A DNA stretch of 64,000 nucleotides from an uncultured Candidatus Saccharibacteria bacterium (lineage in GTDB: Bacteria; Patescibacteriota; Minisyncoccia; UBA6257; WO2-44-18). The position numbers and the translations under genes were made by a program. The number at the start of each line of letters is the position of its first letter. Position 1 is the stretch's first letter. The notes below the pieces were generated by a model. That model worked only from the letters and a program-made list of their open reading frames with translations. It was not told the origin of the DNA and ran no database searches. The DNA lies in NCBI GenBank assembly GCA_964545345.1, contig CAZJFE010000001.1, positions 15,360-79,359 on the forward strand, written 5' to 3'. Positions 25,946 to 59,040 of the stretch are shown here, piece after piece.

Positions 25946-25958
25946 TTTATAAGATAAT

Positions 25959-27116
25959 ATGAGACCAATGTCAAAGCTACGTCCCCGGACCGCTATTTTT
26001 AGCTTGGCCTACGATCCGTTCGTTGGCGGAGCGGAGATTGCGGTTCGCGAGATTGTTCGCCGTCTCCCCGGATCGGATTTCGTCATTTTGACCAGGCGGT
26101 TTGATAATGGTTGGCCGCCGATTGAATTCTCGGACAATTATTCGGTTGTGCGTTTAGGGCGCGGCCGTTCTGATGGGAATTATTATGGCGGTTTTTTTAG
26201 GAAAATCTCCTACATCTTTTCGGCCTATCGGTGGGCGGCGCGAGCGCACGCGACCGATCCCTTCACAGCAGTTTGGGCAGTGATGGCGTCTTATGCCGGT
26301 ATCGCCGCGCTGTTTTTTAAGTTGCGTCATCCTGAAGTGCCGCTGTTACTCACCCTGCAGGAGGGAGATTCGGAGATTCATATACTTAGCCGAGTTGGGA
26401 TATTTTATCCGCTTTGGAAATTAATTTTTAAAAAAGCAGATTATGTTCAGGCCATCAGTAACTTTTTGGCTGATTTTGCTAGACGTCACGGCGCGCGTTG
26501 TCCGGTAGAGGTGGTGCCCAACGGCGTTGATTTGGAAAGCTATGAATTATCTGCTGTTAAATCCAAGGGAAATTCTTTCAATGTCGTCACCACCTCGCGT
26601 CTTGTTACAAAAAACGCAGTTGATACTTTGATAAAATCCGCTGAGTACATAGATTCTCATGTCAATTATCTAATTTACGGTTCCGGTCCGGATCATGATC
26701 GACTTGCCGGCCTGGCGAACGCGGTGAGTGGAAAGAATCCTAACGCGACAGTGCGCTTTTTGGGTCATGTAAGTCCGGATGATATACCGGAAGTTTTGGG
26801 TGCGGCTCAAGTTTTTGTCCGGGCTTCACGATCAGAGGGGCTGGGCAATTCTTTTTTAGAGGCCATGGCGGCCGGTGTTCCGGTGATTGGCACCAGGGTT
26901 GGAGGAATACCAGATTTTTTGATCGATGAGGAGACCGGATTGTTTGTTGAGGTTGATAATCCTAAGGATCTTGCTGAGAAGATTCTAAGTTTGAAAAATG
27001 ACCCGGCTTTGCGGGAGAGGTTGAGCCACAACGGAAAGAAGTTGGTCAAAGAAAAGTATTCCTGGGATAACATTGCGTTCAGAATGGAAAACATTTTCAA
27101 AAAATTATGCGTGTAA
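25959..27116 (+). CDS. Glycosyltransferase family 4
   Basis: RSEGLGNSFLEAMAAGVPVIGTRVGGIPDFL. Confidence 0.85.
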   Translation: MRPMSKLRPRTAIFSLAYDPFVGGAEIAVREIVRRLPGSDFVILTRRFDNGWPPIEFSDNYSVVRLGRGRSDGNYYGGFFRKISYIFSAYRWAARAHATDPFTAVWAVMASYAGIAALFFKLRHPEVPLLLTLQEGDSEIHILSRVGIFYPLWKLIFKKADYVQAISNFLADFARRHGARCPVEVVPNGVDLESYELSAVKSKGNSFNVVTTSRLVTKNAVDTLIKSAEYIDSHVNYLIYGSGPDHDRLAGLANAVSGKNPNATVRFLGHVSPDDIPEVLGAAQVFVRASRSEGLGNSFLEAMAAGVPVIGTRVGGIPDFLIDEETGLFVEVDNPKDLAEKILSLKNDPALRERLSHNGKKLVKEKYSWDNIAFRMENIFKKLCV

Positions 27117-28222
27117 CCATTGCGACAGGAATTTACCCTCCAGATTTAGGCGGACCAGCCAAGCATGCTGAGGCGATGCGTAAATTTTTGGAATCCCGAA
27201 ACTGCAAGGTGGCAGTGGTCGCATTTGGCGCTAGTCGGGAAGGAGTTTGGGGTGTGCCTCGTTTTCTGCCATTCGGATTACGTCATTTCGTTTATTTCCT
27301 ACGCTGTCTGACGGCGGCCTTTGTTTCTGATCTGATTTACGCGCAGGATGCGGTCGGCGTGGGATTACCGGCTTTGCTGGCGGCGAAGTTATTACGCCGG
27401 AAATTCGTAGTTAGGGTTGGGGGTGATTTGGTTTGGGAGAGGATCAACGAAAGAGCGAGGCGTTCAGTATCCTTAAAAGAACTCTATGTCGGCCGCCAAT
27501 ATCTTTGGAAGGCGCCTGTTTATTATTGGTTGACCCGTTGCGTGTTGAGTTTCGCGGACGCCGTGATTGTTCCTGCCGCTATGCTGAAAGATTTGTACTC
27601 GCGGCAGTATAATATTGATTCGCGAAAGATTTTTCATTTTCCGAACCCTGAGCTGGTTCCGGAATTTGTAAAGGAAATGTCGCGCGTGGAGACTGACCGT
27701 ATTTTGTTCGCGGGCAGATTTGTCACTTATAAAAATCTGGATTTATTGATGCGAGCTTTTGATCAGGCGAGGCGGCGATCTGGCCGAGGCCAGTTAGTAC
27801 TAGTCGGTGATGGTCCGGAACGTCATCATTTGGAAACCCTCCGGAATCAGTTGAGCGCAAAAGATTTCATAGAAATCCGCTTTCCTATTTCACGGGAAGA
27901 GCTGGCCCATCTGATCAGCGATTCGGGGGTTTGTGTTGGCCCGGCTCTGACGGAATTTAATCCTAATTTTATTTTGGAGTGTCTGGCTATGGAGAAGCCG
28001 GTTCTAATCAGCGCGGAGAATGGCCTGTCGGTGAGATTGCCGGTTTCGTGGATTTTTGATGCTCGGAGTGAGTCGGAACTTGTTCAGAAAATTGAAAAGA
28101 TGCTTGACGGCCGGCAATATCAAAATGCAATTTTAGAATTGGAAAAGATTCCTCCGACGCCGGCATGGGAGGAAACGGCCGAAAATATTTTCTCAACATT
28201 CACAAAACTATGCGGATATTAA
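27107..28222 (+). CDS. Glycosyltransferase family 4-like
   Basis: N-terminal IATGIYPPDLGGPAKHAEAM, central FAGRFVTYKNLDLLMRAF; GT-B fold pattern. Confidence 0.7.
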   Translation: MRVTIATGIYPPDLGGPAKHAEAMRKFLESRNCKVAVVAFGASREGVWGVPRFLPFGLRHFVYFLRCLTAAFVSDLIYAQDAVGVGLPALLAAKLLRRKFVVRVGGDLVWERINERARRSVSLKELYVGRQYLWKAPVYYWLTRCVLSFADAVIVPAAMLKDLYSRQYNIDSRKIFHFPNPELVPEFVKEMSRVETDRILFAGRFVTYKNLDLLMRAFDQARRRSGRGQLVLVGDGPERHHLETLRNQLSAKDFIEIRFPISREELAHLISDSGVCVGPALTEFNPNFILECLAMEKPVLISAENGLSVRLPVSWIFDARSESELVQKIEKMLDGRQYQNAILELEKIPPTPAWEETAENIFSTFTKLCGY

Positions 28223-29223
28223 TGCTTTCAACGGATGCTCAGGTTTGCAATGAAGGGAGCGCTGTGCGCGCCCGTGTTTTGGAGTATGGCAAATTGTTTG
28301 AGGAACTCCATGTGATTGTTTATACCCGCCCCGGAAAGAAAGAGGAGGTAATAGGCAACGTCCATCTCTGGCCAACTAATAATCGGTTAAAATTTGGGTA
28401 TTTCGGAAGGGCGCTGAAGCTCGGGAAGAATCTTCTCAAAGCGGGAGGCGATTGGGTGGTTTCTTCACAGGATCCATTTGAGACTGGCTGGGTAGCTTAT
28501 CAATTGAAGAAGATCTTTGGTGTCCCTTTTCAAGCCCAGATCCATACCGATTTTTTAAGTCCTTACTTTGTTTTGGGATCGTTCAAAAACCGAGTTAGAG
28601 TTTTGCTGGCTCAGTGGTTAGTAAAGCGCGCTGACCGTGTGCGGGTTGTTTCCGATCGCATTAAAAGATCCCTGATTGCGCTCGATTCTAATTTGGAGAA
28701 AAAGACTATTGTCTTGCCGATATTCGTAGATGTGGAGAAGATTCGTGCTACAGCCCCTGATTTGGGACTACAGAAGAGATATAAATCCAACGGTGAATTT
28801 CTGATTTTGACCGTTGCCAGAGATGCACCAGAAAAAAGTTTAAGCTTAGCTGAGAAAATCGTTGATGCATTGAAGAAAAATAATCCGAAGCTTGATTGGC
28901 TACTGATCAGCAATGCATCATCGGCGCTTCCTTACTATAAAATTGCTGATTTATTTTTACTAACCTCTAACTATGAGGGCTACGGAATGGCGGCGGTGGA
29001 GGCGGCCGCGGCCGGTATTCCAGTAGTGATGACTGATGTCGGCGTGGCGTTGGGGGCGACTTTTCCTGTTGGCGATAAAGCAAAAGCTGTAGAGATAATT
29101 GAAGGTTTGATAAAGAATTCTGAGAAGCGCCGGCAGTTAGTTGAGAAACAGAATGAGTTTTTCCGGAATTGGCCGACTAAGCAGCAATATTTAGAAAGGT
29201 ATAAAGCCAGCTTAACTTTTTAA
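28210..29223 (+). CDS. Glycosyltransferase family 4-like (start at internal ATG 28210, 13-nt overlap with previous gene)
   Basis: TSNYEGYGMAAVEAAAAGIPVVMTDVG. Confidence 0.75.
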   Translation: MRILMLSTDAQVCNEGSAVRARVLEYGKLFEELHVIVYTRPGKKEEVIGNVHLWPTNNRLKFGYFGRALKLGKNLLKAGGDWVVSSQDPFETGWVAYQLKKIFGVPFQAQIHTDFLSPYFVLGSFKNRVRVLLAQWLVKRADRVRVVSDRIKRSLIALDSNLEKKTIVLPIFVDVEKIRATAPDLGLQKRYKSNGEFLILTVARDAPEKSLSLAEKIVDALKKNNPKLDWLLISNASSALPYYKIADLFLLTSNYEGYGMAAVEAAAAGIPVVMTDVGVALGATFPVGDKAKAVEIIEGLIKNSEKRRQLVEKQNEFFRNWPTKQQYLERYKASLTF

Positions 29224-29224
29224 T

Positions 29225-29252
29225 ATGAAATCCCGTTAGAAATTCTACTCAA
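29225..29252. repeat. Outer inverted repeat A (28 bp, atgaaatcccgttagaaattctactcaa); perfect inverted copy at 37064-37091
   Basis: Exact 28/28 reverse-complement match read directly from the sequence. Confidence 0.9.
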
Positions 29253-29317
29253 TAAAGTTATAAAGAAAATATGATAATTATCCAAAGAAAATTAAGGTTT
29301 AGCCAAAGGTCATTGTT

Positions 29318-29343
29318 TGGTCAATATTTCTAACGGGATGAAA
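29318..29343. repeat. Inner inverted repeat B (26 bp, tggtcaatatttctaacgggATGaaa) containing the start codon of the GT gene; perfect inverted copy at 36972-36997; 14-nt core complementary to repeat A
   Basis: Exact 26/26 reverse-complement match; ATG at 29338-29340 lies inside the repeat. Confidence 0.9.
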
Positions 29344-30405
29344 ATTTTATTTATTACTCAAAAAGCGGATAAAAATGATGACGTGCTTGGGGTCTATCAT
29401 CGTTGGATAGAGGGGCTTGCTCAACATTTCGAGAAAGTTTCTGTCATTTGTTTATACAAAGGGCAGACGGCGCTTCCGGAGAATGTATCAGTCTATTCTT
29501 TGGGTAAAGAACTGGCTGTCAGTTCTCAGTGGCAGTACGCGCTTCGCTTCCTGAAATTGATCTGGCAATTAAGGAATGATTATGACCGGGTTTTCGTTCA
29601 TATGAATCCGGAATATGTGGTTTTAGGCGGATTATTTTGGAAATTATCCAGGAAAAAAGTTGTGCTTTGGTATGCTCACTATCTGAGCAATTTGAAACTA
29701 AGAATCGCGGTTTTGTTGGCGGATCGGGTCGTTACTTCAATTCGTTTAGCGTTTCCCTTTCCGACAAAAAAGTTACAGGTTTTACAACAAGGGATTGACA
29801 CTATGCTTTTCTCTCCAGCTAAAACCGCTCAGTCGTCTTCTGATAACTTGAACGTATTATTCTTAGGCAGGATCGCTCCGGTAAAGAATTTGGATGTTCT
29901 CGTGAGGGCCATCCAGCTCGCGCGTCAGCGGATTCCGGTCAAACTTTCAGTAGTGGGGGCGCCGACTCTGGGGCGTTCCGCGGAGCGTGGTTATTATACG
30001 GGGATTAAAAAATTAGTGGACGATCTGGGCTTAGCCGGCTTAGTGAACTTTCATAATCCGGTGGCGAATAAGGATACGCCGGCAATTTACCGGAAGCATG
30101 ATTTGTTTGTTAACCTTACGGTAACCGGAAGTTTTGATAAGAGTACGCTGGAAGCGATGGCTTGTGGAATTCCAGTGCTGATAAGCAACCTTGCCTTTCG
30201 AGATATCCTGGGACCAGAGTTGAGCAACCAGTTGATGTTTAAAGAAGGAGACCATCGGGATTTAGCGGACAAAATTTCTCAAATCGCCGCGCTGAGCGTT
30301 GAGGATCGGGAGAAGCTTGGAGGAAGATTAAGAGAGATTATTGTGAATCAGCATGACCTCGGTAGGTTAGTGATTCGCCTTGCCGAGACCATTAAGACTA
30401 TTTAA
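29338..30405 (+). CDS. Glycosyltransferase family 4
   Basis: FLGRIAPVKNLDVLVRAIQLA...DKSTLEAMACGIPVLISN; ATG 29338 preferred over TTG 29317. Confidence 0.8.
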   Translation: MKILFITQKADKNDDVLGVYHRWIEGLAQHFEKVSVICLYKGQTALPENVSVYSLGKELAVSSQWQYALRFLKLIWQLRNDYDRVFVHMNPEYVVLGGLFWKLSRKKVVLWYAHYLSNLKLRIAVLLADRVVTSIRLAFPFPTKKLQVLQQGIDTMLFSPAKTAQSSSDNLNVLFLGRIAPVKNLDVLVRAIQLARQRIPVKLSVVGAPTLGRSAERGYYTGIKKLVDDLGLAGLVNFHNPVANKDTPAIYRKHDLFVNLTVTGSFDKSTLEAMACGIPVLISNLAFRDILGPELSNQLMFKEGDHRDLADKISQIAALSVEDREKLGGRLREIIVNQHDLGRLVIRLAETIKTI

Positions 30406-30410
30406 TCCAA

Positions 30411-31808
30411 ATGATTATTGATGAATCAGATCGCAAACACAGTTTCCTCCACTATTTTCTAAAGGGGGAGGCAACTAAAAGAGTTTTTGACGGCATTTCA
30501 ACGGCGGTAGGTTTGGTTAATTCCTATTTCATTATTTCTAATCTTTCGGTTTTTCACTTCGGATTGTATCAGTTGATGCTCTCGCTGGTTTCCATATTAG
30601 ATAATTTCAATTTGGATGTGATTGATGGCGTAGTACAAATAGACATGCGAAGAAGCTTCAATGTCGGCAACCGGTCTGCCGCTAAACGTCTTTATTGGGA
30701 CTACGCCAAGATCAAGTTAGGTATTTCTGTGGTTTTCGCGACAGCCGTGTTTTTTGGATCTTCTTTGATCTCCAAATATTACGGCGAGGATCTGGGATTA
30801 TTTATCCGGATATCCAGCTTCCTTTTGATTTTTAGAGCCCTTCAATCATTGGAGACAATGCTTCTAAAGTCCCTGCTCACTTTTTCTTATTGGTCCTATC
30901 CGGCCATTCGTGAATCCGCTAAGTTGTTGTTTGTTCTCGGGTTTTTGTTTTTTTCCGGCCAATTCACTATCACTCAGGTTATCACCGCTCACGTGATTGC
31001 TGACGGCGTGGCGGTTGTGGTGATGACGCTGACGCTTTTTATTAATAAATATCGCAAAGCTTTTATGGGCGTGGTGATGGAATCCAAATCGTTAGTATGG
31101 GGGGTTGTCAGCACCTACGGGAAATGGGCAATGTTACGCTACCTATTCTCCAAAGTCAGCAAAAATTCCACTCCTTGGCTGATTAAATATTTCATTAACA
31201 CCGAAGCAGTCGCCTTCTATGCGTTAGCAGTTAACCTAATCGCGTTTATTGAAAACTTTTTCCCGATGGATGGTTTAGCCCAAATATTGGCTTTCAAGGC
31301 GGACAACCTAGGGCAGATTTCTTCTATCTTTAAGAGGGCGGTTAAGTACGCGTTTTGGTTAGGGGTGATATTTATGATTGGCGGGGCGGTGGTTGCCGCG
31401 CCGGTTGTGGTATTTATCTTTCCAAAGTATGGACCAGCGATGCCGGTTTTCTACGTTATGCTTCTCGCTTTGCCGGTGTTTGGACTCTATAAGATTTTAA
31501 AGAGTACCCTGACGGTTCTCAGAGAGCAGAAGATTTTGACCATGAGGGTCTTTAATGAGGCGGTGTTGATCCCCGCCACTTTAGTTATTTTCTTGCCGTT
31601 CTTTCGGTTGGTTGGAGCCGGCTTCACTTACGCCTTACTGTATTTGGAGCGTTCTTGGTTTTTCTACAGTCAATTGGTCAAAAAATACCCGGATTTCAAA
31701 ATTAAGCCCTGGCAGTTTCTAAGATTTGACCGAGCTGATCGCGATCTGTTAGAAAGGGTGATTGCCGATCCCTGGAGAAAGGCGAAGAACTTAATCGGGG
31801 TTGAATAA
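30411..31808 (+). CDS. Oligosaccharide flippase (Wzx-like, MOP superfamily) membrane protein
   Basis: 465 aa, ~12 predicted TM helices, embedded in glycan cluster. Confidence 0.65.
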   Translation: MIIDESDRKHSFLHYFLKGEATKRVFDGISTAVGLVNSYFIISNLSVFHFGLYQLMLSLVSILDNFNLDVIDGVVQIDMRRSFNVGNRSAAKRLYWDYAKIKLGISVVFATAVFFGSSLISKYYGEDLGLFIRISSFLLIFRALQSLETMLLKSLLTFSYWSYPAIRESAKLLFVLGFLFFSGQFTITQVITAHVIADGVAVVVMTLTLFINKYRKAFMGVVMESKSLVWGVVSTYGKWAMLRYLFSKVSKNSTPWLIKYFINTEAVAFYALAVNLIAFIENFFPMDGLAQILAFKADNLGQISSIFKRAVKYAFWLGVIFMIGGAVVAAPVVVFIFPKYGPAMPVFYVMLLALPVFGLYKILKSTLTVLREQKILTMRVFNEAVLIPATLVIFLPFFRLVGAGFTYALLYLERSWFFYSQLVKKYPDFKIKPWQFLRFDRADRDLLERVIADPWRKAKNLIGVE

Positions 31809-31810
31809 CT

Positions 31811-32971
31811 ATGGGGCAAAAAAGAAAAATTTGTTTGTTTTCTGGCAAGCGCGGCGGGTTCGGCGCTTATTTGCCGTTGATGCGATTAATTGACGCTGAC
31901 CCGGACCTGGAATTACAGATTCTTCTGGGCGATATGCACGCTTCAAAAGAATTTGGCCAGACCGTTGATGAAGCCAGAAAGTTCTTTCCGGAAGCGAAAA
32001 TAGAGGTTATTGAGATGGGCGCCGGTCGCGGTGATAGTCCGGTAGTTCGGGCGGAGAATTTGGGAATGTGTCTGCAGAAAGCTCCGGCGATTTTAGAGAA
32101 GCTAGGGCCGGATTTGGTTTTAGTCCATGGCGACAGGGCGGAGCATTTAATGGTGGCGCTGGCGGCGCTCAATCTTGGTATTCCGGTGGGCCACACTCAA
32201 GGAGGAGAGGTCTCGGGGAACATTGATGATGTTCAGCGGCATGCCATTACCAAGCTGGCCCATCTGCATTTTCCGGAGACGGAAGCCGCCGCCGATCGTT
32301 TGAAGAAACTTGGAGAAGAAACTTGGAGGATTAACGTGGTCGGTTCTACTTACATAGATCGGATCGCGAAGAAGATGTATACACCAACTTCGGAAGCCAG
32401 AGCAAAGTATGGTTTGGAGCCAGAAGAAAAATATTTCTTGGTAATTTTCCACCCGGACACTTATCTTTCTCGTGAAGAAAATTATCAGGCGGCTAAAAAT
32501 ATTTTGGCGGCCATGAAAGATTCGGGATATAAGGCGGCTATCACCTATCCTTGCTCCGACCCCGGCTATCAGGGGGTTTTAGACGCGATGGCGGAAGTTA
32601 AGAATGATCCGCAATTTTTAATTTACAAAAATATAGATAATTTAGATTTTTTGGGATTAATGGCTGGCGCGCGGGCGATCTTGGGTAATTCCTCTTCAGC
32701 TATCGTAGAGGCGCCATATTTCCAGTTGGCGGCCGTTAACGTTGGAAAGCGTCAGATGGGACGTGACCGAGAGGAAAATGTAGTTGATTGTGAGGCGACC
32801 GTTGACGGCATCAAATCCAAGATAAGATTTGTTTTGGAGGATTCAAGTTTCCGGGAGAAATTGAAGCAATGCGGCTACCGGTTGGGAAACGGGCAAGCCG
32901 CCGAAAAAATCCTCGCTGTGTTGAAGACCGCCGAAATCAACGAAAAGTTGCTCAAAAAGCGCCTTGTCTAA
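31811..32971 (+). CDS. UDP-N-acetylglucosamine 2-epimerase, hydrolysing type (NeuC-like)
   Basis: N-term KICLFSGKRGGFGAYLPLMRLI, HGDRAEHLMVALAALNLGIPVGHTQGGEVSGNID, 386 aa; family typical of nonulosonic-acid pathways. Confidence 0.75.
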   Translation: MGQKRKICLFSGKRGGFGAYLPLMRLIDADPDLELQILLGDMHASKEFGQTVDEARKFFPEAKIEVIEMGAGRGDSPVVRAENLGMCLQKAPAILEKLGPDLVLVHGDRAEHLMVALAALNLGIPVGHTQGGEVSGNIDDVQRHAITKLAHLHFPETEAAADRLKKLGEETWRINVVGSTYIDRIAKKMYTPTSEARAKYGLEPEEKYFLVIFHPDTYLSREENYQAAKNILAAMKDSGYKAAITYPCSDPGYQGVLDAMAEVKNDPQFLIYKNIDNLDFLGLMAGARAILGNSSSAIVEAPYFQLAAVNVGKRQMGRDREENVVDCEATVDGIKSKIRFVLEDSSFREKLKQCGYRLGNGQAAEKILAVLKTAEINEKLLKKRLV

Positions 32972-33000
32972 AGACGTCTTTCTTGTTAATTTATTAACTA

Positions 33001-34167
33001 ATGAATTCCAAGCCAAAAGTTTTGATTTTAGGCGGCGATGGCTATTTGGGTTGGCCGACAGCCATGCATTTTGCTCGCCAGGGGTATCAGGTTGCGATTG
33101 CCGATAATATGTCCAAGCGTGTCTGGGAGGCCGAGCTCGGCACGGCGCCGCTTTGGAGCATCCCATTGGTTCATAAGCGGGTTCGTTTATGGAAGGACAA
33201 AGCTGGTCATGAGATAAAACTTTATATTGGTGACATTGCGCAGAATCATCGTTTTGTTTACAAAATGTTTGAGGAATTCCGTCCGGATGCTGTAGTGCAT
33301 TACGCGGAACAGCCATCCGCTCCTTATTCCATGCACAGCCGAGAGAAAGCGGTGAACACTCAGGTCAACAATGTGGCCGGCAACCTGAATGTTTTATTCG
33401 CGATGCGGAAATATACTCCTGATGCTCATTTGGTGAAGCTGGGAACTATGGGCGAGTATGGAACTCCGAACATTGATATTGAGGAGGGTTGGTTAGAGAT
33501 TGAGCACAAAGGCAGAAAAGATAGGGTGTTGTTCCCGAAGAAGCCGGGGTCGTTTTATCACTTAAGCAAAGTACACGACAGCCACAACATTGAATTCGCC
33601 TGCCGAATCTGGGGATTGCGAGCAACCGACCTGAACCAAGGCGTGGTCTATGGTCTTGAGACAGAGGAGACTAAGATGCATCCCGAACTTCTTACCAGTT
33701 TCCATTACGATGATGTTTTCGGTACCGCGTTAAACCGATTTTGCGTTCAGGCGGTTGCCGGTGTACCGCTCACGGTATATGGTCAAGGCGGACAAAAGCG
33801 CGGATTTTTAAATATTAGAGACACTTTGCAGTGTGTTCAAATCGCAGTTGATAATCCGGCGAAATCGGGAGAATTCCGGGTGTTCAACCAGTTCACCGAA
33901 GTTTTTTCAGTGTTGGATTTGGCCAAAACTGTTCAGCAAGCTAGCGAGGCCTTAGGTATCAAGGTTTCCATCAACAATATTCCTAATCCACGAGTAGAGG
34001 CCGAACAGCATTATTACAATCCGAAAAATGATTCATTGCTTAAGTTGGGATTAAAGCCCCGCAATCTCTCTAATGAGCTGATCAATTCCATGCTGGTGAA
34101 TATCCAAAAATCCAAGGATCAGATTGAGCACCACACGATTTTGCCGAAGATCACTTGGAAACAGTAA
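33001..34167 (+). CDS. UDP-sulfoquinovose synthase (SQD1/Agl3 family, extended SDR)
   Basis: Near-colinear match to remembered SQD1 blocks: GGDGYLGW, HYAEQPSAPYSM, VKLGTMGEYGTPNIDIEEG, FYHLSKVHDSHNI, ATDLNQGVVYG, FGTALNRFCVQA, NPRVEAEQHYYN. Confidence 0.85.
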   Translation: MNSKPKVLILGGDGYLGWPTAMHFARQGYQVAIADNMSKRVWEAELGTAPLWSIPLVHKRVRLWKDKAGHEIKLYIGDIAQNHRFVYKMFEEFRPDAVVHYAEQPSAPYSMHSREKAVNTQVNNVAGNLNVLFAMRKYTPDAHLVKLGTMGEYGTPNIDIEEGWLEIEHKGRKDRVLFPKKPGSFYHLSKVHDSHNIEFACRIWGLRATDLNQGVVYGLETEETKMHPELLTSFHYDDVFGTALNRFCVQAVAGVPLTVYGQGGQKRGFLNIRDTLQCVQIAVDNPAKSGEFRVFNQFTEVFSVLDLAKTVQQASEALGIKVSINNIPNPRVEAEQHYYNPKNDSLLKLGLKPRNLSNELINSMLVNIQKSKDQIEHHTILPKITWKQ

Positions 34168-34883
34168 TGTCTAATAATCCGAAAGTTTTAGCGATTATTC
34201 CAGCGAGAGGCGGTTCCAAATCCATTCCCCATAAAAATATTGTTTCGTTAGCGGGCAAACCACTTTTGAGTTATGCGGTTAATGCGATCAAAGCGAGCAA
34301 ATCCGTGAATCGTCTGATCGTGGACACCGATGATCAGAAAATCGCCGATGTGGCGAAAGTTTTGGGGGCGGAGGTTCCGTATTTACGACCGGCCGAGCTT
34401 GCCACCGACACCGCCGCCACGATGCCAGTACTGCGTAATTCGTTGGAATGGTTAGCGAAAAATGAAAATTATTTCCCGGATTATATACTGTTGGTTCAAG
34501 CCACTTCCCCGTTTATTAAAACCTCCGAAATTGAAGCCGCGATTGATCTGATAAAAAAGAATTCCGAAGCCGACTCTGTTACCAGTGTTATTGAGGTGCC
34601 AAACAATTTTCATCCGATTAACTCCCGACTGATCACCGATGATGGCTGGTTGCAATTCGTGGATTCGGTTGAGCGGGCGAAATATAACCAGCGGCAGTCC
34701 AAGCCGAAGCGATACGCGATCGGTAATCTCTGGGTCTTTACGCCCGAAGTGATACAAAAAAAAGATATTCCGATCGGTGATCACTGCTTGCCACTGATTA
34801 TTAAGCCGATGAGCGCTTTTGACATTGATACTCCGGAGGACCTAGAGGTCGCCGAAGCGCTTTTACCAATCGCTTTACGATGA
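34167..34883 (+). CDS. N-acylneuraminate (CMP-nonulosonate/CMP-Kdo family) cytidylyltransferase
   Basis: LAIIPARGGSKSIPHKNI...YLRPAELATD; TAATG overlap with previous stop. Confidence 0.8.
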   Translation: MSNNPKVLAIIPARGGSKSIPHKNIVSLAGKPLLSYAVNAIKASKSVNRLIVDTDDQKIADVAKVLGAEVPYLRPAELATDTAATMPVLRNSLEWLAKNENYFPDYILLVQATSPFIKTSEIEAAIDLIKKNSEADSVTSVIEVPNNFHPINSRLITDDGWLQFVDSVERAKYNQRQSKPKRYAIGNLWVFTPEVIQKKDIPIGDHCLPLIIKPMSAFDIDTPEDLEVAEALLPIALR

Positions 34884-36235
34884 GGACTATTTTTTTAACT
34901 GCTTTCACTAATTTTGTTGTCCGAAATATTTTGGACACGGAAGTTCTGGGCATTTTGAAGTCCGATCCGAATTTGAGGATTGTTATTTTAGCCCCTGATG
35001 AGGAAAGAGATTATTTGGCCAAGCATTTTTCTTCCAACAATGTATTAGTTGAGGGGGTCAGGATGTTGCCGGTTGGCACCACGAAAGCTCTGATTAGTTT
35101 TATCTGTCGGTCTCTAGTTAAGACTTATACCACCGAGATGTTCGCCAAACTGCGCTATAGCCGTCTGGAGTATTTTTGGTACTATTTTCTCGTTAACGTA
35201 TTAGCTGGGCGAGTTTGGTTCATGAAGTTCATGCGTTTTCTAGACAATCTTCTGCTCACTAAGGATCGTTTTGCTACTTATTTTGAAAAATATCAGCCAT
35301 CGTTAGTTTTTTCTACCGACATCACCGATCGGAGCACCGGGGAGAGTGATATTGATCTGATTCGTGAGGCGAAGCATCGGGGTGTTCCGGTTGTTGGTAT
35401 GGTACGTTCCTGGGATAATCTTACTTCCAGGGGGATTATTCGGCAGGTCCCGGACAAAATAATTCTGCATAATGAAATTTTGAAGAATGAGTGTGTGAAA
35501 TATCACGGTATAACGCCGGAGAAGATTATTGTCACGGGTATACCCCATTACGACAACTACCTGAAAGTTAAAAAACTTTCTAGGGAAGAATTTTACCGAC
35601 CCCTTGGCCTCGATCCTAATAAAAAGACTGTATTTTTTGTAGTGACGGCCGATGGCTTCCTGGAAAAGCAGTTTGGCGGCCGCAAGCCGACTATTAATCG
35701 GCATATTTTGGAGCAATTAACCAAATTAAATTCGGACAAATATCAAATTCTAGTTCGCTTCCCCTTAATCGGAACGGTTGATCTTGGAGATTTCAAAACA
35801 CCGGCTAATATGGTTTTTGATCATCCGGGGAAACTGTTTGGCAAGGGAGAGTTGGATCGTGACTCGGATTACCACCTGATTAATTCTTTGTATCACTGCG
35901 ACGTTGGTATTCCTGGTCCCTCAACCATTGCGGCCGACACTCTAATTTTTGATAAACCACTAATAGTGGTCGGTTTTGATAAAGAAAAAGATTTGCCCAT
36001 GGAGGCGAGTATGAGAAAGTTTCTAGCTTTGGAGCATCTTCGGCCGCTTACCGATCTTGGCGCGGCTAGGATCGCCAATGACGAATCGGAGTTGGCCGAT
36101 CTGCTGAATAAGTATTTAGAAAATCCTAAGTCCGACGCGGAAAATCGCCAAAAGGCGATTGAGGCAATTTGCTGGAGATTAGATGGCCAGGCGAGTGAAC
36201 GAGTGGCGCAGTCTATTTTGTCGGGGTTGCGCTAG
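34880..36235 (+). CDS. Uncharacterised GT-B-like putative glycosyl-/phospho-transferase, paralog 1 of 3 (motif RSWDNLTSRG; DHPG; FDKPLIVVGFD)
   Basis: Shares N-terminal MRTIF/MRTIL, RSWDN(L/V)T(S/T) and C-terminal FDKPVI blocks with 41282-42622 and 62882-64000; family not identified. Confidence 0.5.
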   Translation: MRTIFLTAFTNFVVRNILDTEVLGILKSDPNLRIVILAPDEERDYLAKHFSSNNVLVEGVRMLPVGTTKALISFICRSLVKTYTTEMFAKLRYSRLEYFWYYFLVNVLAGRVWFMKFMRFLDNLLLTKDRFATYFEKYQPSLVFSTDITDRSTGESDIDLIREAKHRGVPVVGMVRSWDNLTSRGIIRQVPDKIILHNEILKNECVKYHGITPEKIIVTGIPHYDNYLKVKKLSREEFYRPLGLDPNKKTVFFVVTADGFLEKQFGGRKPTINRHILEQLTKLNSDKYQILVRFPLIGTVDLGDFKTPANMVFDHPGKLFGKGELDRDSDYHLINSLYHCDVGIPGPSTIAADTLIFDKPLIVVGFDKEKDLPMEASMRKFLALEHLRPLTDLGAARIANDESELADLLNKYLENPKSDAENRQKAIEAICWRLDGQASERVAQSILSGLR

Positions 36236-37133: not shown

Positions 37134-38342
37134 ATGAAAGATAAAATCCTCTCAAATCTGCTTAAAAACGAGCTTCAAAGGCAGAAAGACACGCTTAATC
37201 TTATCCCATCAGAAAACTATGTTTCTTCGGATATTTTATCAATTTTAGGCTCCCCATTAACGAACAAATACTCCGAGGGTTATCCGGGTAAACGCTATTA
37301 TCCGGGAAACCAGTTTTATGATGAAATTGAGAGGTTGGCGCAAAACCGGGCTTTGAAATTTTTTGGTCTCAAGCCAACCGAATGGCGGGCTAACGTCCAA
37401 CCCTATTCCGGTTCTCCGGCGAATCTGGCCATCTATTCTGCTTTGTTGGAAAAAGATGATGTTATTTTGAGTCTCCGCTTGGACGCGGGCGGTCATTTGA
37501 GTCACGGCCACAAAGTTAGCGCCTCGGGGAAATTTTTCAAAGTGGTTCATTATGGGGTGGGCGATGATGGCTTAGTTGATTATGAGCGCTTGGCGGAACT
37601 TGCCAGAGAAAGCAACGCTAAAATTATCGTTTCTGGTTTTACCGCCTATCCTCGGAAGGTAGATTTTTCAAAAATAGGGAAAATCGCGACTTCTGTGGGC
37701 GCCTATCATTTGGCCGACATTTCTCATATTGCCGGTCTAGTTGGGGCTGGTCTTCATCCATCACCTTTCGCGCACAGCGATGTGGTAATGACTACTACCC
37801 ACAAGACTTTACGTGGCCCCCGCGGAGCGGTCATTTTTTCTCGCTCAGAGTTAGCCGATCGTATTGATCGGGCGGTATTTCCGGGAATGCAGGGTGGGCC
37901 GCACAACAATGTGATCGCGGCCAAAGCGTTGATGTTTTTTGAGGATTCCACTTCTGCTTTCAAAAAATATCAGCAGCAGATTGTAAAAAACGCGACTGTA
38001 TTAGCCAAAGGATTAACCGGTAAGGGTTTTGATCTGTTGACCGGCGGAACGGACACCCATCTGATGCTTATTAATTTAAAGCCGGTGGGTCTAACCGGAA
38101 TGGAGGCGGAAAAGATTTTGGAAAAAAATAATATAAACGCGAACCGTAATTCCTTACCCGGTGATCCGTCGCCGTTCAACCCAACCGGTATCCGCATCGG
38201 CATTCCGGCGGCTACTACCCGGGGGATGAAGGAAAAAGAGATGGCTAAAGTTGCCGAGTTGATTCATCGGGCGCTGGTTAAAAAAGAGAATGTTTTGAAA
38301 GAAGTCGTGGCCCTTTGCAAAAAATTTCCTCTGCCTTACTAA
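37134..38342 (+). CDS. glyA: Serine hydroxymethyltransferase
   Basis: PLP-Lys motif TTTHKTLRGPRGA, 402 aa. Confidence 0.95.
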   Translation: MKDKILSNLLKNELQRQKDTLNLIPSENYVSSDILSILGSPLTNKYSEGYPGKRYYPGNQFYDEIERLAQNRALKFFGLKPTEWRANVQPYSGSPANLAIYSALLEKDDVILSLRLDAGGHLSHGHKVSASGKFFKVVHYGVGDDGLVDYERLAELARESNAKIIVSGFTAYPRKVDFSKIGKIATSVGAYHLADISHIAGLVGAGLHPSPFAHSDVVMTTTHKTLRGPRGAVIFSRSELADRIDRAVFPGMQGGPHNNVIAAKALMFFEDSTSAFKKYQQQIVKNATVLAKGLTGKGFDLLTGGTDTHLMLINLKPVGLTGMEAEKILEKNNINANRNSLPGDPSPFNPTGIRIGIPAATTRGMKEKEMAKVAELIHRALVKKENVLKEVVALCKKFPLPY

Positions 38343-38345
38343 CTT

Positions 38346-39128
38346 ATGGTTATTGATGGGAAAAAAATAGCTGGGCAAATTATCGCCGAGCTGAAGAAGC
38401 AGTTGGCGCCGCAAAAAGAGCTGGCGGCGATTTTAGTTGGCGAAAACCCCGCCTCGGCTAGTTTTTTGCGGCAAAAGGAAAAGATCGCGAAAGATTTGGG
38501 AGTTAATTTTCAGCTCCACAATTTGAGAGCCGACTTATCCCAAGGTGAACTGATTGTTGAGTTGGGTAAGTTGATTTCCAGTGATCAGGTCGGCGGATTC
38601 ATTTTGCAATTGCCTTTGCCGGAAAAATACGACCGTGACGAGGTTTTGGCAGCTTTGCCCTCAGAAAAAGATGTTGACGCGCTCACCGGCAGAGGAAAAG
38701 CGGTGCCGCCGGCAGTTTTAGCGGTGCAAGATGTTTTAAAAGAAGTTCGTTTTTCTTTAGCCGACAAAGTGGTTGGGGTTGTGGGCCGGGGTTTACTGGT
38801 TGGTCGACCAATTGCCGAGTGGCTTAGCGGTCAATGCCGGGAAGTAATCATTTTTCACACCAAAACCGATTTGAGTCGGATTGCCGATTGCGATCTGGTG
38901 ATTTCCGGAGCCGGCAAGGCCGGTTTAATTAAACCGGATATGCTCAAGCCAGGCGCTGGATTGATTGATTTCGGTTTTGACATGGTTGACGGCAAAGTTC
39001 GCGGCGATTTTGATCCAGCGTCGTTAGTCGTTAGTCGTTCGTCAGTCAGTTTTTACACTCCCACCCCAGGCGGCACCGGGCCTATTCTGGTTGCCGAATT
39101 GTTCAAAAATTTCTATACTCTTAACTAA
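38346..39128 (+). CDS. folD: Bifunctional methylene-THF dehydrogenase/methenyl-THF cyclohydrolase
   Basis: IDGKKIA...ILVGENPASASFLRQKEKIAKDLG, VVGRGLLVGRPIAEWL, PTPGGTGPILVAELFKNFY. Confidence 0.9.
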   Translation: MVIDGKKIAGQIIAELKKQLAPQKELAAILVGENPASASFLRQKEKIAKDLGVNFQLHNLRADLSQGELIVELGKLISSDQVGGFILQLPLPEKYDRDEVLAALPSEKDVDALTGRGKAVPPAVLAVQDVLKEVRFSLADKVVGVVGRGLLVGRPIAEWLSGQCREVIIFHTKTDLSRIADCDLVISGAGKAGLIKPDMLKPGAGLIDFGFDMVDGKVRGDFDPASLVVSRSSVSFYTPTPGGTGPILVAELFKNFYTLN

Positions 39129-50997: not shown

Positions 50998-50999
50998 AC

Positions 51000-58876: not shown

Positions 58877-59040
58877 AAAGCGCTCCACTGCCAGATGGTT
58901 TTTCTTAATCTCCGGTTTGTTTTTTGCATAGAACTTAATTTTCTAGAAAGATTACTTTACCGCGGGCAGTGAAATTTCACCGGCGCCTCTTAAGTGACGG
59001 GGTTGATTTTTCGAATCAAAATAGTTTAAATTGGCTGTAC

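What the first reader, a model, noticed from the sequence alone, without database searches (positions are those of the whole stretch)
33001..34167. SQD1-type UDP-sulfoquinovose synthase inside a bacterial surface-glycan island
The protein aligns block-for-block with the remembered SQD1 signature (GGDGY-GW, HFGEQRSAPYSM, VKLGTMGEYGTPNIDIEEG, FYHLSKVHDSHNI, ATDLNQGVVYG, NPRVEAE-HYYN). SQD1/Agl3 enzymes make UDP-sulfoquinovose, for sulfolipid in phototrophs and for N-glycans in Sulfolobus. Here it sits between a NeuC-like epimerase and a CMP-sugar cytidylyltransferase, flanked by glycosyltransferases and a flippase. This points to sulfoquinovose-containing, sulfonated cell-surface glycans in this organism.
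Basis: partly seen in the sequence, partly recalled or inferred. Interest (0 to 1): 0.6.

Follow-up and report, generated by a model that had tools for sequence, protein, structure and literature searches.

The report
SQD1-like sulfo-sugar synthase wired to sialic-acid-type genes
A groundwater Patescibacteria (CPR) genome carries a real homolog of the plant and cyanobacterial sulfoquinovose synthase, but it belongs to an uncharacterised sister lineage that is never linked to sulfolipid genes and is instead tightly linked to sialic-acid-type (nonulosonic acid) genes, which suggests a sulfonated nonulosonic acid on the cell surface, a sugar that has not been described.

Summary
The ORF at 33001..34167 (+) is real. 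It aligns end to end with crystallised Arabidopsis SQD1 (513 bits, 57% identity, one gap). The catalytic residues Thr, Tyr, Lys and His and the TMGEY motif are kept, but SQD1/Agl3 Arg101 (Agl3 R101A is inactive) is Pro here, and Asp267 is Asn. This "P-type" defines large uncharacterised lineages; all validated synthases sit in one nested R-type clade. Among loci with at least 5 kb of flank, R-type loci have SqdX nearby (13/34) and never NeuA/B/C. P-type loci never have SqdX (0/78) but have NeuC (23), NeuA (23) and NeuB (20) within 5 kb. NeuA is the immediate neighbour in 21 loci. Five NeuA homologs chosen without regard to SQD1 all sit next to a P-type gene, one of them beside flagellin genes. 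In seven mostly CPR loci a PAPS reductase (a sulfite source) lies within about 1.1 kb of the P-type gene. Best reading (about 0.5): this is the first enzyme of a conserved module that makes a CMP-activated sulfonated nonulosonate, which TagB/BFO_1060-like enzymes transfer. A sulfolipid role is rejected. The window itself lacks a PAPS reductase and the module-type NeuB.

The parts
33001..34167 (+). P-type SQD1/SqdB-family extended SDR (388 aa): predicted UDP-hexose 6-sulfonate (UDP-sulfoquinovose-type) synthase. Pro105 replaces SQD1 Arg101 and Asn271 replaces Asp267.
31811..32971 (+). NeuC/LegG-type hydrolysing UDP-sugar 2-epimerase, in the 'NeuC-S' clade that travels with P-type genes. It ends 29 nt before the SQD1-like gene.
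   Evidence: TIGR03568 328 bits, above the 235.9 cut-off; PF02350; clade; within 5 kb in 23/78 P-type loci against 0/34 R-type loci.
34155..34883 (+). CMP-nonulosonate-type cytidylyltransferase ('NeuA-S'). The likely true start is the ATG at 34167, which overlaps the SQD1-like stop codon (TAATG).
   Evidence: PF02348 104 bits; PseF model 157.6 bits, below the 205.7 cut-off; junction; clade; reverse association 5/5.
34880..36235 (+). TagB/PF04464-like, BFO_1060-like soluble transferase (451 aa, no TM segment): candidate CMP-nonulosonate transferase. Its ATG overlaps the NeuA stop codon (ATGA).
   Evidence: PF04464 42 bits; NF046086 46.9 bits, below the 200 cut-off; no TM segment. BFO_1060 belongs to the T. 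forsythia Pse/Leg-derivative transferase family (PMC5420450). The same protein type neighbours the module in L111, L171, L172, L083 and L087.
41282..42622 (+). Second PF04464/BFO_1060-like transferase paralog.
30411..31808 (+). Polytopic membrane protein (465 aa, at least 8 hydrophobic segments), probably a Wzx-like flippase. It ends 2 nt before the NeuC-like gene.
   Evidence: No Pfam or NCBIfam hit here. Proteins of similar size and position in L086, L087 and L089 have a faint PF01943 hit.
24830..30405 (.). Five GT4 glycosyltransferase genes (24830-25945 on the minus strand; 25959-27116, 27107-28222, 28165-29223 and 29317-30405 on the plus strand). They are candidate users of a UDP-sugar. 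None is an SqdX ortholog.
   Evidence: The best match to SqdX is 26% identity, 67 bits.
58969..59919 (+). The only NeuB-family (PEP-condensing nonulosonate synthase) gene in the window. It is not in the module-type 'NeuB-S' clade.
   Evidence: PF03102 269 bits; TIGR03569 256 bits, below the 399.65 cut-off; tree.
61841..62560 (-). Second CTP_transf_3 cytidylyltransferase. It clusters with 'second-set' NeuA copies from other loci.
37134..39128 (+). SHMT plus an island-specific second FolD paralog. They recur next to the module in related CPR loci, and a role in it is possible but untested.

Best explanation
The gene encodes a P-type member of the SQD1/SqdB/Agl3 family of extended SDRs. It is most likely the first committed enzyme of a conserved sugar module, not a stand-alone sulfoquinovose supplier. 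Proposed route: (1) the SQD1-like enzyme oxidises a UDP-hexose (UDP-Glc or UDP-GlcNAc) at C4, eliminates water across C5-C6, adds sulfite at C6 and re-reduces C4, giving a UDP-6-deoxy-6-sulfo-hexose; (2) the NeuC/LegG-type hydrolysing 2-epimerase releases the free manno-configured 6-sulfo sugar; (3) a NeuB-type synthase condenses it with PEP into a 9-deoxy-9-sulfo nonulosonic acid; (4) the PseF/NeuA-type cytidylyltransferase makes the CMP-sugar; (5) TagB/BFO_1060-like transferases attach it to a surface glycan or protein, and a Wzx-like protein exports it. Shown: family membership at the fold and sequence level; conserved catalytic residues; the Arg101Pro/Asp267Asn class signature; the operon structure; the two-way, cross-phylum gene linkage to NeuC, NeuB and NeuA; the absence of SqdX; and PAPS reductase beside orthologs. 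Inferred: the use of sulfite, the identity of the UDP-sugar, the serial (as opposed to parallel) connection to the Neu genes, and the product. In this window the module is incomplete. It has no PAPS reductase and no module-type NeuB, so sulfite and the condensing step must come from elsewhere in the genome (possibly the NeuB at 58969) or from the host or environment.
For: Family: 513 bits and 57% identity to SQD1 over the full length. T149, M150, E152, Y153, Y186, H187 and K190 correspond to SQD1 T145, M146, E148, Y149, Y182, H183 and K186.

Class: all 120 best homologs carry Pro (one Thr) at the Arg101 position. Across 149 P-type and 37 R-type sequences only six class-specific positions emerge, including R101P and D267N. 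The R-type is a single clade nested among P-type lineages.

Context, loci with at least 5 kb of flank: P-type loci (n=78) have NeuC 23, NeuA 23, NeuB 20 and SqdX 0 within 5 kb. R-type loci (n=34) have NeuA/B/C 0 and SqdX 13. Fisher p=8.9e-5 for NeuC and 2.7e-8 for SqdX. NeuA lies within 100 bp in 21 loci although the gene order differs between phyla.

Dedicated paralogs: where a locus has two Neu sets, the copies next to the SQD1-like gene form their own NeuC, NeuA and NeuB clades, and the window's NeuC and NeuA belong to these clades. L111 has a five-gene operon NeuB-NeuC-2HacidDH-NeuA-SQD1P beside a separate canonical NeuB+NeuC pair.

Reverse test: five NeuA-S homologs (46-54% identity, contig GC 0.36-0.63), chosen only for contig length, all sit in a cluster with a P-type SQD1 homolog. 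In L171 the module follows flagellin-FliD-FlaG-FliS-FliT, and the only transferase-like gene there is BFO_1060-like.

Sulfite: a CysH lies within about 1.1 kb of the P-type gene in L001, L002, L083, L086, L087, L093 and L102. The L001 CysH scores 184 on NF002537, above the 154 cut-off. L083 also has a TauE-family gene.

Operon: stop and start codons overlap at the SQD1-like/NeuA and NeuA/transferase junctions.

Precedent: Pen/Pal 5,6-ene-forming SDRs feed CMP-pseudaminic acid synthesis (PMC8987622).
Against: No P-type protein has been assayed as far as I could find. Arg101, which is required in Agl3 (PMC4388408), is missing, and a template-based prediction places it in both the NAD and the UDP-SQ pockets (PMC7281551).

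As far as I know, NeuC-type enzymes are known only on 2-acetamido sugars. The serial route would therefore need either UDP-GlcNAc as the SQD1-like substrate or a relaxed NeuC. Neither has been tested.

Gene linkage cannot distinguish a serial pathway from two sugars that are always used in the same glycan.

About two thirds of P-type loci (Solirubrobacterales, Terriglobia, Chloroflexi) have no Neu genes and instead have a GT2 or GT4 nearby. The enzyme's product can therefore be used without the Neu module.

The window has five GT4 genes in the same operon, no CysH, and only a non-module NeuB 25 kb away.

No sulfonated nonulosonic acid turned up in the searched literature.
Confidence: 0.5

Rival explanations
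1. Parallel supply. The enzyme makes UDP-sulfoquinovose, and one of the adjacent GT4 (or other) glycosyltransferases transfers it directly into the surface glycan. The NeuC, NeuB and NeuA genes make an ordinary nonulosonic acid for the same glycan. The linkage reflects co-inheritance of one glycan island.
For: There are five GT4 genes in the same operon, and SqdX/SQD2 are GT4 enzymes. P-type genes in Solirubrobacterales and Chloroflexi lack Neu genes and have GT2 or GT4 neighbours. The window lacks the module-type NeuB. Sulfolobus sets a precedent for SQ in protein glycans (PMC4388408).
Against: This view does not explain why a distinct NeuA/NeuB/NeuC paralog set co-evolves with the SQD1-like gene alongside a second canonical set. 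It does not explain why all five NeuA-S homologs sampled at 46-54% identity carry a P-type gene. Compact modules such as L171 (flagellar context) and L111 show only BFO_1060-like transferases and no recognised UDP-sugar GT. None of the window's GT4s is orthologous to SqdX.
Confidence: 0.3
2. Sulfite-independent dehydratase. P-type enzymes have lost sulfite addition (Arg101Pro) and act as UDP-hexose 5,6- or 4,6-dehydratases, supplying a 6-deoxy sugar for a 9-deoxy nonulosonic acid. This would be analogous to Pen/Pal or PglF/LegB at the head of the Pse and Leg pathways.
For: Agl3 makes UDP-glucose-5,6-ene when sulfite is absent (PMC4388408). Pen/Pal are a precedent (PMC8987622). The Arg required in Agl3 is missing. 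Most non-CPR P-type loci show no sulfur gene nearby. The module occupies the slot that a dehydratase holds in Leg-type clusters.
Against: PAPS reductase sits within about 1.1 kb of the gene in seven loci, and TauE in one. These are hard to explain in CPR genomes without a need for sulfite. His183 and the TMGEY signature, which distinguish SQD1 from true dehydratases ([ST]DE), are invariant. Non-CPR bacteria would normally have cysH elsewhere in the genome.
Confidence: 0.12
3. Classical sulfolipid (SQDG) synthesis, as in cyanobacteria, plants and Alicyclobacillus.
For: Family-level homology only.
Against: An SqdX ortholog is adjacent in 13/34 R-type loci with sufficient flank and in 0/78 P-type loci, and is absent from the window. 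The gene lies in a glycan operon with a flippase-like protein and transferases. The organism is a CPR bacterium; my own knowledge, untested here, is that CPR bacteria generally lack de novo lipid synthesis.
Confidence: 0.02
4. A catalytically dead or decaying paralog, because of the Arg101Pro change.
For: Agl3 R101A is inactive.
Against: Pro at this position is fixed in at least 149 sequences across several phyla. More than 130 columns are invariant among 17 diverse members, including all catalytic residues. Pro is the majority state in distant family clusters as well (71/92). The gene is intact and translationally coupled to its neighbour.
Confidence: 0.03

Closest known systems
Arabidopsis SQD1 / cyanobacterial SqdB (UDP-sulfoquinovose synthase, EC 3.13.1.1; PDB 1QRR, 1I24)
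   Same: Same length and fold; 57% identity with one gap. The GxxGxxG motif, T145/Y182/K186, His183, the TMGEY motif and the aligned Arg263/Arg327 are all conserved.
   Different: Arg101 is Pro and Asp267 is Asn. The protein lies outside the R-type clade that holds SQD1 and SqdB. It has no SqdX/SQD2 partner and no sulfolipid context. Its partners are NeuC, NeuA, NeuB and, in relatives, CysH.
Sulfolobus acidocaldarius Agl3 (UDP-sulfoquinovose synthase for N-glycans)
   Same: Use of the product in a protein or cell-surface glycan and not in a lipid; the same modified dehydratase chemistry is expected (PMC4388408).
   Different: Agl3 is R-type, and its Arg101 is needed for activity. It is only distantly related (SQD1 and Agl3 share about 40% identity according to the paper). 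In Sulfolobus, SQ itself is incorporated, and no Neu-type genes are involved.
Legionaminic / pseudaminic / sialic acid pathways (LegB-C-H-G-I-F; PseB-C-H-G-I-F; NeuC-B-A), including Pen/Pal of B. thuringiensis
   Same: An SDR with 4-oxidation/dehydration chemistry at the head of the pathway, followed by a NeuC/LegG-type hydrolysing epimerase, a NeuB-type PEP condensation, a CMP-transferase and a TagB/BFO_1060-like transferase. One locus (L171) has a flagellin context.
   Different: The module core has no aminotransferase or acetyltransferase. The head enzyme is SQD1-like (TMGEY, His183) and not of the [ST]D[EK] dehydratase type. PAPS reductase is embedded in CPR versions. The NeuB and NeuA members score below the NeuB, PseI and PseF equivalog cut-offs.
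Tannerella forsythia nonulosonate transferases Tanf_01245 / TFUB4_00887 / BFO_1060
   Same: The window proteins at 34880-36235 and 41282-42622 are about 450 aa, soluble and TagB/PF04464-like, and lie directly downstream of the CMP-sugar genes.
   Different: The similarity is weak (about 47-48 bits against a cut-off of 200), and the acceptor and donor are unknown.

Membership tests
SQD1/SqdB/Agl3 UDP-sulfoquinovose synthase | Extended-SDR fold with an N-terminal GxxGxxG NAD-binding motif and full-length similarity to a solved SQD1 structure | tested here: met
   GGDGYLG at residues 11-17; PF01370 77 bits; SQD1 513 bits over residues 6-388; 57.3% identity.
SQD1/SqdB/Agl3 UDP-sulfoquinovose synthase | Catalytic Thr145/Tyr182/Lys186, His183 and the [ST]MG(E)Y wall that distinguishes SQD1 from [ST]DE dehydratases | tested here: met
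   T149, M150, G151, E152, Y153, Y186, H187 and K190; invariant in the 17-sequence P-type alignment; signature as given in PMC8987622 Table 1.
SQD1/SqdB/Agl3 UDP-sulfoquinovose synthase | Arg101 (EQRSAP motif); Agl3 R101A is inactive | tested here: not met
   Pro105 (EQPSAP) in the window and in all P-type relatives; mutant data from PMC4388408.
SQD1/SqdB/Agl3 UDP-sulfoquinovose synthase | Score above the curated NCBIfam equivalog cut-off (NF041015, 575 bits) | tested here: inconclusive
   The window protein scores 477.7. However, Arabidopsis SQD1 scores 484.7, Nostoc SqdB 478.8 and Alicyclobacillus SqdB 484.3, so the cut-off excludes validated enzymes too.
SQD1/SqdB/Agl3 UDP-sulfoquinovose synthase | Placement inside the clade that contains experimentally validated members | tested here: not met
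   In the NJ tree the R-type close family (SQD1, cyanobacteria, Alicyclobacillus) forms one clade of 40, and the window protein sits in a separate P-type clade of 35. This is a distance tree without support values.
SQD1/SqdB/Agl3 UDP-sulfoquinovose synthase | Genomic link to a sulfite supply | tested here: inconclusive
   There is no CysH, Sat, CysC or TauE in the 64-kb window. CysH lies within about 1.1 kb of the ortholog in seven related loci, and TauE in one.
SQD1/SqdB/Agl3 UDP-sulfoquinovose synthase | [quoted passage not shown] | not testable with these tools
   This needs an enzyme assay.
Sulfolipid (SQDG) pathway | Sulfoquinovosyl-diacylglycerol synthase partner (SqdX/SQD2) | tested here: not met
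   The best window match to Nostoc, Rivularia or Alicyclobacillus SqdX is 26% identity, 67 bits. SqdX is adjacent in 0/78 P-type loci against 13/34 R-type loci.
Nonulosonic acid (Neu/Leg-type) biosynthesis module | Hydrolysing UDP-sugar 2-epimerase (NeuC/LegG) | tested here: met
   The gene at 31811-32971 scores 328.4 on TIGR03568, above the 235.9 cut-off.
Nonulosonic acid (Neu/Leg-type) biosynthesis module | NeuB-type PEP-condensing synthase | tested here: inconclusive
   The window's only NeuB (58969-59919; PF03102 269 bits) is 25 kb away, scores below the TIGR03569 cut-off (256 against 399.65) and is not in the module-type clade. A module-type NeuB with a SAF domain is adjacent in most related loci.
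Nonulosonic acid (Neu/Leg-type) biosynthesis module | CMP-nonulosonate synthetase | tested here: inconclusive
   PF02348 at 104.5 bits is met. The best equivalog model, PseF TIGR03584, scores 157.6, below the 205.7 cut-off. The substrate is unknown.
Nonulosonic acid (Neu/Leg-type) biosynthesis module | Aminotransferase and N-acetyltransferase steps (these define Leg/Pse as opposed to Neu/Kdn types) | tested here: not met
   None is present in the conserved core of the module. The window's WecE-like aminotransferase (51713-52846) belongs to a separate dTDP-sugar block.

The most novel reading that the evidence does not exclude
P-type SQD1 homologs are the entry enzymes of an undescribed nonulosonic acid pathway. 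In it, a UDP-6-deoxy-6-sulfo-hexose (possibly the N-acetylated form) is hydrolysed and epimerised by a dedicated NeuC, condensed with PEP by a dedicated NeuB and CMP-activated by a dedicated NeuA. The product would be a C9-sulfonated (C-S bonded) sialic-acid-like sugar displayed on cell surfaces, and in at least one lineage on flagellin, in CPR bacteria, Alphaproteobacteria and others. CPR genomes keep a private PAPS reductase solely to feed this pathway.
Probability: 0.45. Interest if true: 0.85.

Novelty: new variant of a known kind. Interest (0 to 1): 0.66.

Why it matters
If the module works serially, it defines a new class of acidic surface sugar: a sulfonated nonulosonate combining the two best-known anionic sugar chemistries. 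It would also give a new biological role to the SQD1 reaction outside photosynthetic membranes and archaeal N-glycans. It would explain why genome-reduced, host-dependent CPR bacteria retain an isolated PAPS reductase. It would also flag thousands of database entries currently named either 'UDP-sulfoquinovose synthase' (KEGG or Prokka style) or 'NAD-dependent epimerase/dehydratase' (PGAP) as a distinct functional class. Even under the conservative reading, this is the first evidence-based case I could find for sulfonated surface glycans in CPR. The R101P/D267N split also gives a simple sequence rule separating sulfolipid-type homologs from glycan or nonulosonate-type homologs. The hypothesis is directly testable with four recombinant enzymes and LC-MS.

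Tried and rejected
(1) NCBIfam NF041015 as a membership test. The window protein is below the cut-off, but so are SQD1 itself and cyanobacterial SqdB, so the test carries no information.

(2) The exhaustive search of 50%-identity representatives. P-type and R-type proteins are about 60% identical and collapse into the same clusters, so it could not separate them. It did show that Pro is the majority state in distant clusters.

(3) An exact-sequence look-up of the window protein's contig found nothing, although P0001 is in the protein collection.

(4) The SQD1 crystal-structure paper (PMC23906 / its DOI) is not held. The roles of Arg101 and Asp267 therefore rest on a template-based prediction in PMC7281551 and on covariation. 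The salt-bridge idea is weak, because in distant clusters Arg is not paired with Asp.

(5) The 'heptagonal box' text in PMC8987622 gave no information on the wall containing Arg101.

(6) tRNA and Rfam scans of the window found nothing.

(7) Five literature searches linking sulfoquinovose, sqdB or sulfonation to Patescibacteria, CPR, nonulosonic acids or neuB found nothing relevant. The Haloquadratum genome paper mentions sqdB and neuB in unrelated contexts.

(8) GT4 neighbours as SqdX orthologs: rejected. NCBIfam gives only generic sub-threshold GT4 hits.

(9) c5/c6/c7 next to the Solirubrobacterales P-type genes. I considered the 565-aa c5 protein as a possible sulfoacetaldehyde acetyltransferase (a sulfite source). 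Judging by its sequence, the sizes of c6 and c7 and the gene order, it looks like ilvB-ilvN-ilvC housekeeping synteny. This was not tested with profiles.

(10) Structure prediction and fold search were not run. At 57% identity and one gap to a solved structure they would add nothing, and the tools return no coordinates for measuring distances.
Full report
**1. The observation**

The ORF listing gives a 388-aa ATG ORF at exactly 33001..34167 on the plus strand. Against all PDB sequences the best hits are the three Arabidopsis SQD1 entries, at E about 6e-153 and 513 bits, covering residues 6-388. The next hit, CDP-tyvelose 2-epimerase, scores only 42 bits. My pairwise alignment gives 57.3% identity over 382 residues with a single one-residue gap.

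In NCBIfam the only strong hit is NF041015, 'UDP-sulfoquinovose synthase', at 477.7 bits. GalE scores 43.6 bits.

Five of the six quoted motif blocks are present letter for letter.

The neighbours are as described:
- The NeuC-type hydrolysing 2-epimerase at 31811..32971 scores 328 bits on TIGR03568, above the 235.9 cut-off.
- The CTP_transf_3 cytidylyltransferase lies at 34155..34883.
- Five GT4 genes lie upstream.
- The 465-aa polytopic membrane protein at 30411..31808 is probably the flippase.

From 25959 to 36235 the plus-strand genes are separated by at most 93 nt. The SQD1-like stop codon overlaps the next ATG (TAATG), and the cytidylyltransferase stop overlaps the following ATG (ATGA). 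GC content is uniform (0.45-0.47), so the island is not compositionally foreign.

**2. The organism**

The closest homologs come from Patescibacteria/Parcubacteria-group MAGs, including a 96%-identical protein on a 258-kb groundwater contig that is syntenic with the window. A truncated deposited version of the same protein is already named 'UDP-sulfoquinovose synthase [Parcubacteria group bacterium Gr01-1014_19]'. The bare annotation is therefore not new.

**3. The deviation**

The motif difference falls on SQD1/Agl3 Arg101. In Agl3, the R101A mutant (primer AEQ[A]SAP) was inactive, as were H95A, M145A, Y182A and K186A (PMC4388408). The window protein keeps the equivalents of every other tested residue, and of SQD1 T145 and H183. 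At the Arg101 position it has Pro105.

This is not an error:
- All 120 best database homologs have Pro (one has Thr).
- A scan of species-representative genomes returned 36 P-type and 36 R-type loci.
- Every cyanobacterial and Alicyclobacillus locus is R-type.
- The Patescibacteria, Saccharibacteria, Rhodospirillales, Solirubrobacterales loci and some Terriglobia and Chloroflexi loci are P-type.

Comparing 149 P-type with 37 R-type sequences gives only six class-specific positions. Among them, R101P is accompanied by D267N. In a distance tree the R-type close family (including SQD1) is one clade of 40, nested among P-type lineages. Among more distant family clusters, Pro is the majority state (71 of 92), with the T-M-E-Y...Y-H-x-x-K signature retained.

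A template-based prediction for a diatom SQD1 lists the equivalent Arg in both the NAD and the UDP-sulfoquinovose pockets (PMC7281551). The change is therefore inside the active site.

I could not obtain the SQD1 structure paper. The idea that Arg101 and Asp267 form a salt bridge is only an inference from covariation, and it is weakened by the lack of that pairing in distant clusters.

Control: the NF041015 cut-off (575 bits) is also missed by Arabidopsis SQD1 (484.7), Nostoc SqdB (478.8) and Alicyclobacillus SqdB (484.3). The window protein's sub-threshold score therefore says nothing.

**4. Context separates the two classes**

I used as references the SqdX genes found directly downstream of sqdB in Nostoc, Rivularia and Alicyclobacillus. 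An SqdX ortholog is adjacent in 14 of 36 R-type genome loci and in none of the P-type loci. The window's best GT4 match to SqdX is 26% identity.

After adding 80 metagenome loci and requiring at least 5 kb of flank, the counts within 5 kb are as follows:

| Neighbour | P-type loci (n=78) | R-type loci (n=34) |
|---|---|---|
| NeuC | 23 | 0 |
| NeuA | 23 | 0 |
| NeuB | 20 | 0 |
| 2-hydroxyacid dehydrogenase | 11 | 0 |
| Membrane GT2 | 20 | 0 |
| SqdX | 0 | 13 |

Fisher p is 8.9e-5 for NeuC and 2.7e-8 for SqdX.

The cytidylyltransferase is the immediate neighbour (within 100 bp) of the P-type gene in 21 loci, although the order differs. It is upstream in Alphaproteobacteria-like loci and downstream in the window.

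**5. A dedicated module**

In loci that carry two Neu sets (L001, L087, L088, L083, L086, L111), the copies beside the SQD1-like gene form their own clades in NeuC, NeuA and NeuB trees. The second-set copies cluster elsewhere. The window's NeuC and NeuA belong to the module clades.

L111 shows a self-contained plus-strand operon, NeuB-NeuC-2HacidDH-NeuA-SQD1P. It lies next to a separate canonical NeuB+NeuC pair and is followed by three BFO_1060/TIGR04396-type proteins.

The module NeuB proteins (PF03102 + SAF) score 276-304 bits on the NeuB model, below the 399.65 cut-off. They are a divergent subfamily closer to NeuB/LegI than to PseI.

Reverse test. I searched with the window cytidylyltransferase:
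- Hits down to about 63% identity lie on the same contigs as P-type genes, judged by matching contig lengths.
- Five further hits at 46-54% identity, chosen only for long contigs and spanning GC 0.36-0.63, all sit in a cluster containing NeuB+SAF, NeuC and a protein 62-64% identical to the window protein with the EQPSAP motif.
- In L171 this set directly follows flagellin, FliD, FlaG, FliS and FliT. The only transferase-like gene there is BFO_1060-like.

BFO_1060 belongs to the Tannerella forsythia family whose members Tanf_01245 and TFUB4_00887 are required for transfer of Pse and Leg derivatives. They are about 445 aa, have a TagB-like domain and have no TM segment (PMC5420450). The window's 451-aa, TM-free PF04464/BFO_1060-like gene at 34880..36235 and its paralog at 41282..42622 fit that description, although the scores are weak.

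**6. Sulfite**

In L001 (Saccharibacteria), L002, L083 (Uhrbacteria), L086 (Vogelbacteria), L087 (Paceibacterota), L093 and L102, a 225-232-aa PAPS-reductase gene lies within about 1.1 kb of the P-type gene, usually directly upstream of it and after NeuC. The L001 protein scores 184 bits on NF002537 (cut-off 154) and ends in ECGLH. L083 also has a TauE/SafE-family gene two genes downstream. No R-type locus has this arrangement.

It is my own knowledge, untested here, that CPR genomes generally lack sulfate assimilation. In such genomes a PAPS reductase inserted into this operon is best explained as a private sulfite supply for the SQD1-like enzyme. This is the main reason to think P-type enzymes still add sulfite despite lacking Arg101.

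The window and its 96% relative do not have this gene. tblastn of CysH against the whole window gives only noise, and Pfam annotation of the remaining ORFs shows no sulfur-assimilation genes.

**7. Mechanism**

The best-supported model is serial:
1. SQD1-P makes a UDP-6-deoxy-6-sulfo-hexose.
2. NeuC-S releases the manno-configured sulfo-sugar.
3. NeuB condenses it with PEP.
4. NeuA-S makes the CMP-sugar.
5. TagB/BFO_1060-like enzymes transfer it.

There is a precedent for an SDR with 5,6-ene chemistry heading a nonulosonate pathway, namely Pen/Pal (PMC8987622).

Arguments for the serial model:
- The two-way linkage across phyla.
- The existence of dedicated paralogs beside canonical sets.
- Compact modules whose only transferase is of the CMP-nonulosonate type.

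Arguments against:
- Linkage cannot prove seriality.
- NeuC-type enzymes are, to my knowledge, known only on 2-acetamido sugars, so either UDP-GlcNAc is the real substrate or NeuC-S has relaxed specificity.
- About two thirds of P-type loci lack Neu genes and have GT2 or GT4 neighbours instead, so the UDP-sulfo-sugar can be used directly.
- The window itself has five GT4s in the operon and only a non-module NeuB, 25 kb away.

**8. Comparison and novelty**

The protein works like, and is homologous to, SQD1/SqdB/Agl3. It fails one tested defining feature (Arg101) and lies outside the validated clade, so I file it as a P-type SQD1-family enzyme and not as an established UDP-sulfoquinovose synthase.

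The module resembles the Neu and Leg pathways but lacks the amino and acetyl steps and is headed by an SQD1-like enzyme.

The library searches found no paper connecting sulfoquinovose synthases with CPR bacteria or with nonulosonic acid genes, and no description of a sulfonated (C-S) nonulosonic acid. The library is incomplete, so this is absence of evidence only.

Rating: new variant of a known kind. The predicted product would be a new sugar class if confirmed.

Noticed in passing
window 37134-39128 and 11921-12706; L081, L088, L089: The island contains SHMT plus a second FolD paralog; the other FolD lies in the housekeeping part of the window. The SHMT+FolD pair recurs next to the P-type module in three other CPR loci. 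This hints at a dedicated one-carbon supply (formyl or methyl decoration?) for this glycan.
   Followed up: partly
L010, L015, L035, L087, L088, L089, L094, L105, L109, L111, L112, L170-L172, L174: A D-2-hydroxyacid dehydrogenase gene is a frequent fifth member of the SQD1-P/NeuB/NeuC/NeuA module (11 of 78 P-type loci; 4 of the 5 reverse-test loci). It is absent from the window, and I could not assign it a role in the proposed pathway.
   Followed up: partly
window 47223-52846: A separate dTDP-sugar block: a C-methyltransferase (PF08421/PF08484), an RmlB-like dehydratase, RmlD, a methyltransferase, a GT2 and a WecE-type aminotransferase (NF008687, 416 bits against a 375 cut-off). This suggests that a C-methylated 4-amino-4,6-dideoxy sugar is made in the same island.
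   Followed up: no
window 53402-55762, 55726-58062 and 43786-45690 (minus strand): Three large polytopic membrane proteins (8-11 hydrophobic segments). One has a YfhO-like C-terminus and the others have no family hit. They may be glycan polymerases, ligases or membrane glycosyltransferases.
   Followed up: no
P0008 (TSC83072.1) compared with window 33001-34167: The deposited 'UDP-sulfoquinovose synthase' of Parcubacteria bacterium Gr01-1014_19 is identical to the window protein except for an N-terminal truncation and an internal 38-residue deletion. The deletion removes HLVKLGTMGEYG...FPK, which includes the catalytic Thr. This looks like an assembly or gene-model artefact in that record.
   Followed up: partly
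L013, L018, L019, L025, L028, L030, L032, L040 and other loci (Solirubrobacterales and other Actinomycetota MAGs): In these lineages the P-type gene is divergently paired with a membrane-anchored GT2 (in 20 of 78 P-type loci) and followed by what look like ilvB-ilvN-ilvC. The GT2 may be a polyprenyl-phosphate sulfo-sugar transferase, which would be a different use of the same enzyme class.
   Followed up: partly
L171 1-5552: In one non-CPR contig (GC 0.54) the SQD1-P/NeuB/NeuC/NeuA/2HacidDH set directly follows flagellin, fliD, flaG, fliS and fliT. This suggests flagellin glycosylation with the module's product.
   Followed up: partly
L089 7811-9922, L172 8842-12288, L173 8704-12974, L083 2431-3441: Radical-SAM genes (B12-binding or SPASM types) and several SAM methyltransferases recur around the module, including directly upstream of the P-type gene in L089. 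This suggests further C- or O-methylation of the sugar.
   Followed up: no
window 20171-23971: A 1266-aa protein whose only recognisable domain is a PG_binding_1 domain lies at the upstream edge of the island and is conserved in the 96% relative (L081).
   Followed up: no
window 59916-61832 (minus strand): A 638-aa protein with a Pol-beta-type nucleotidyltransferase domain lies between the NeuB-like gene and the second cytidylyltransferase. Its function is unknown.
   Followed up: no
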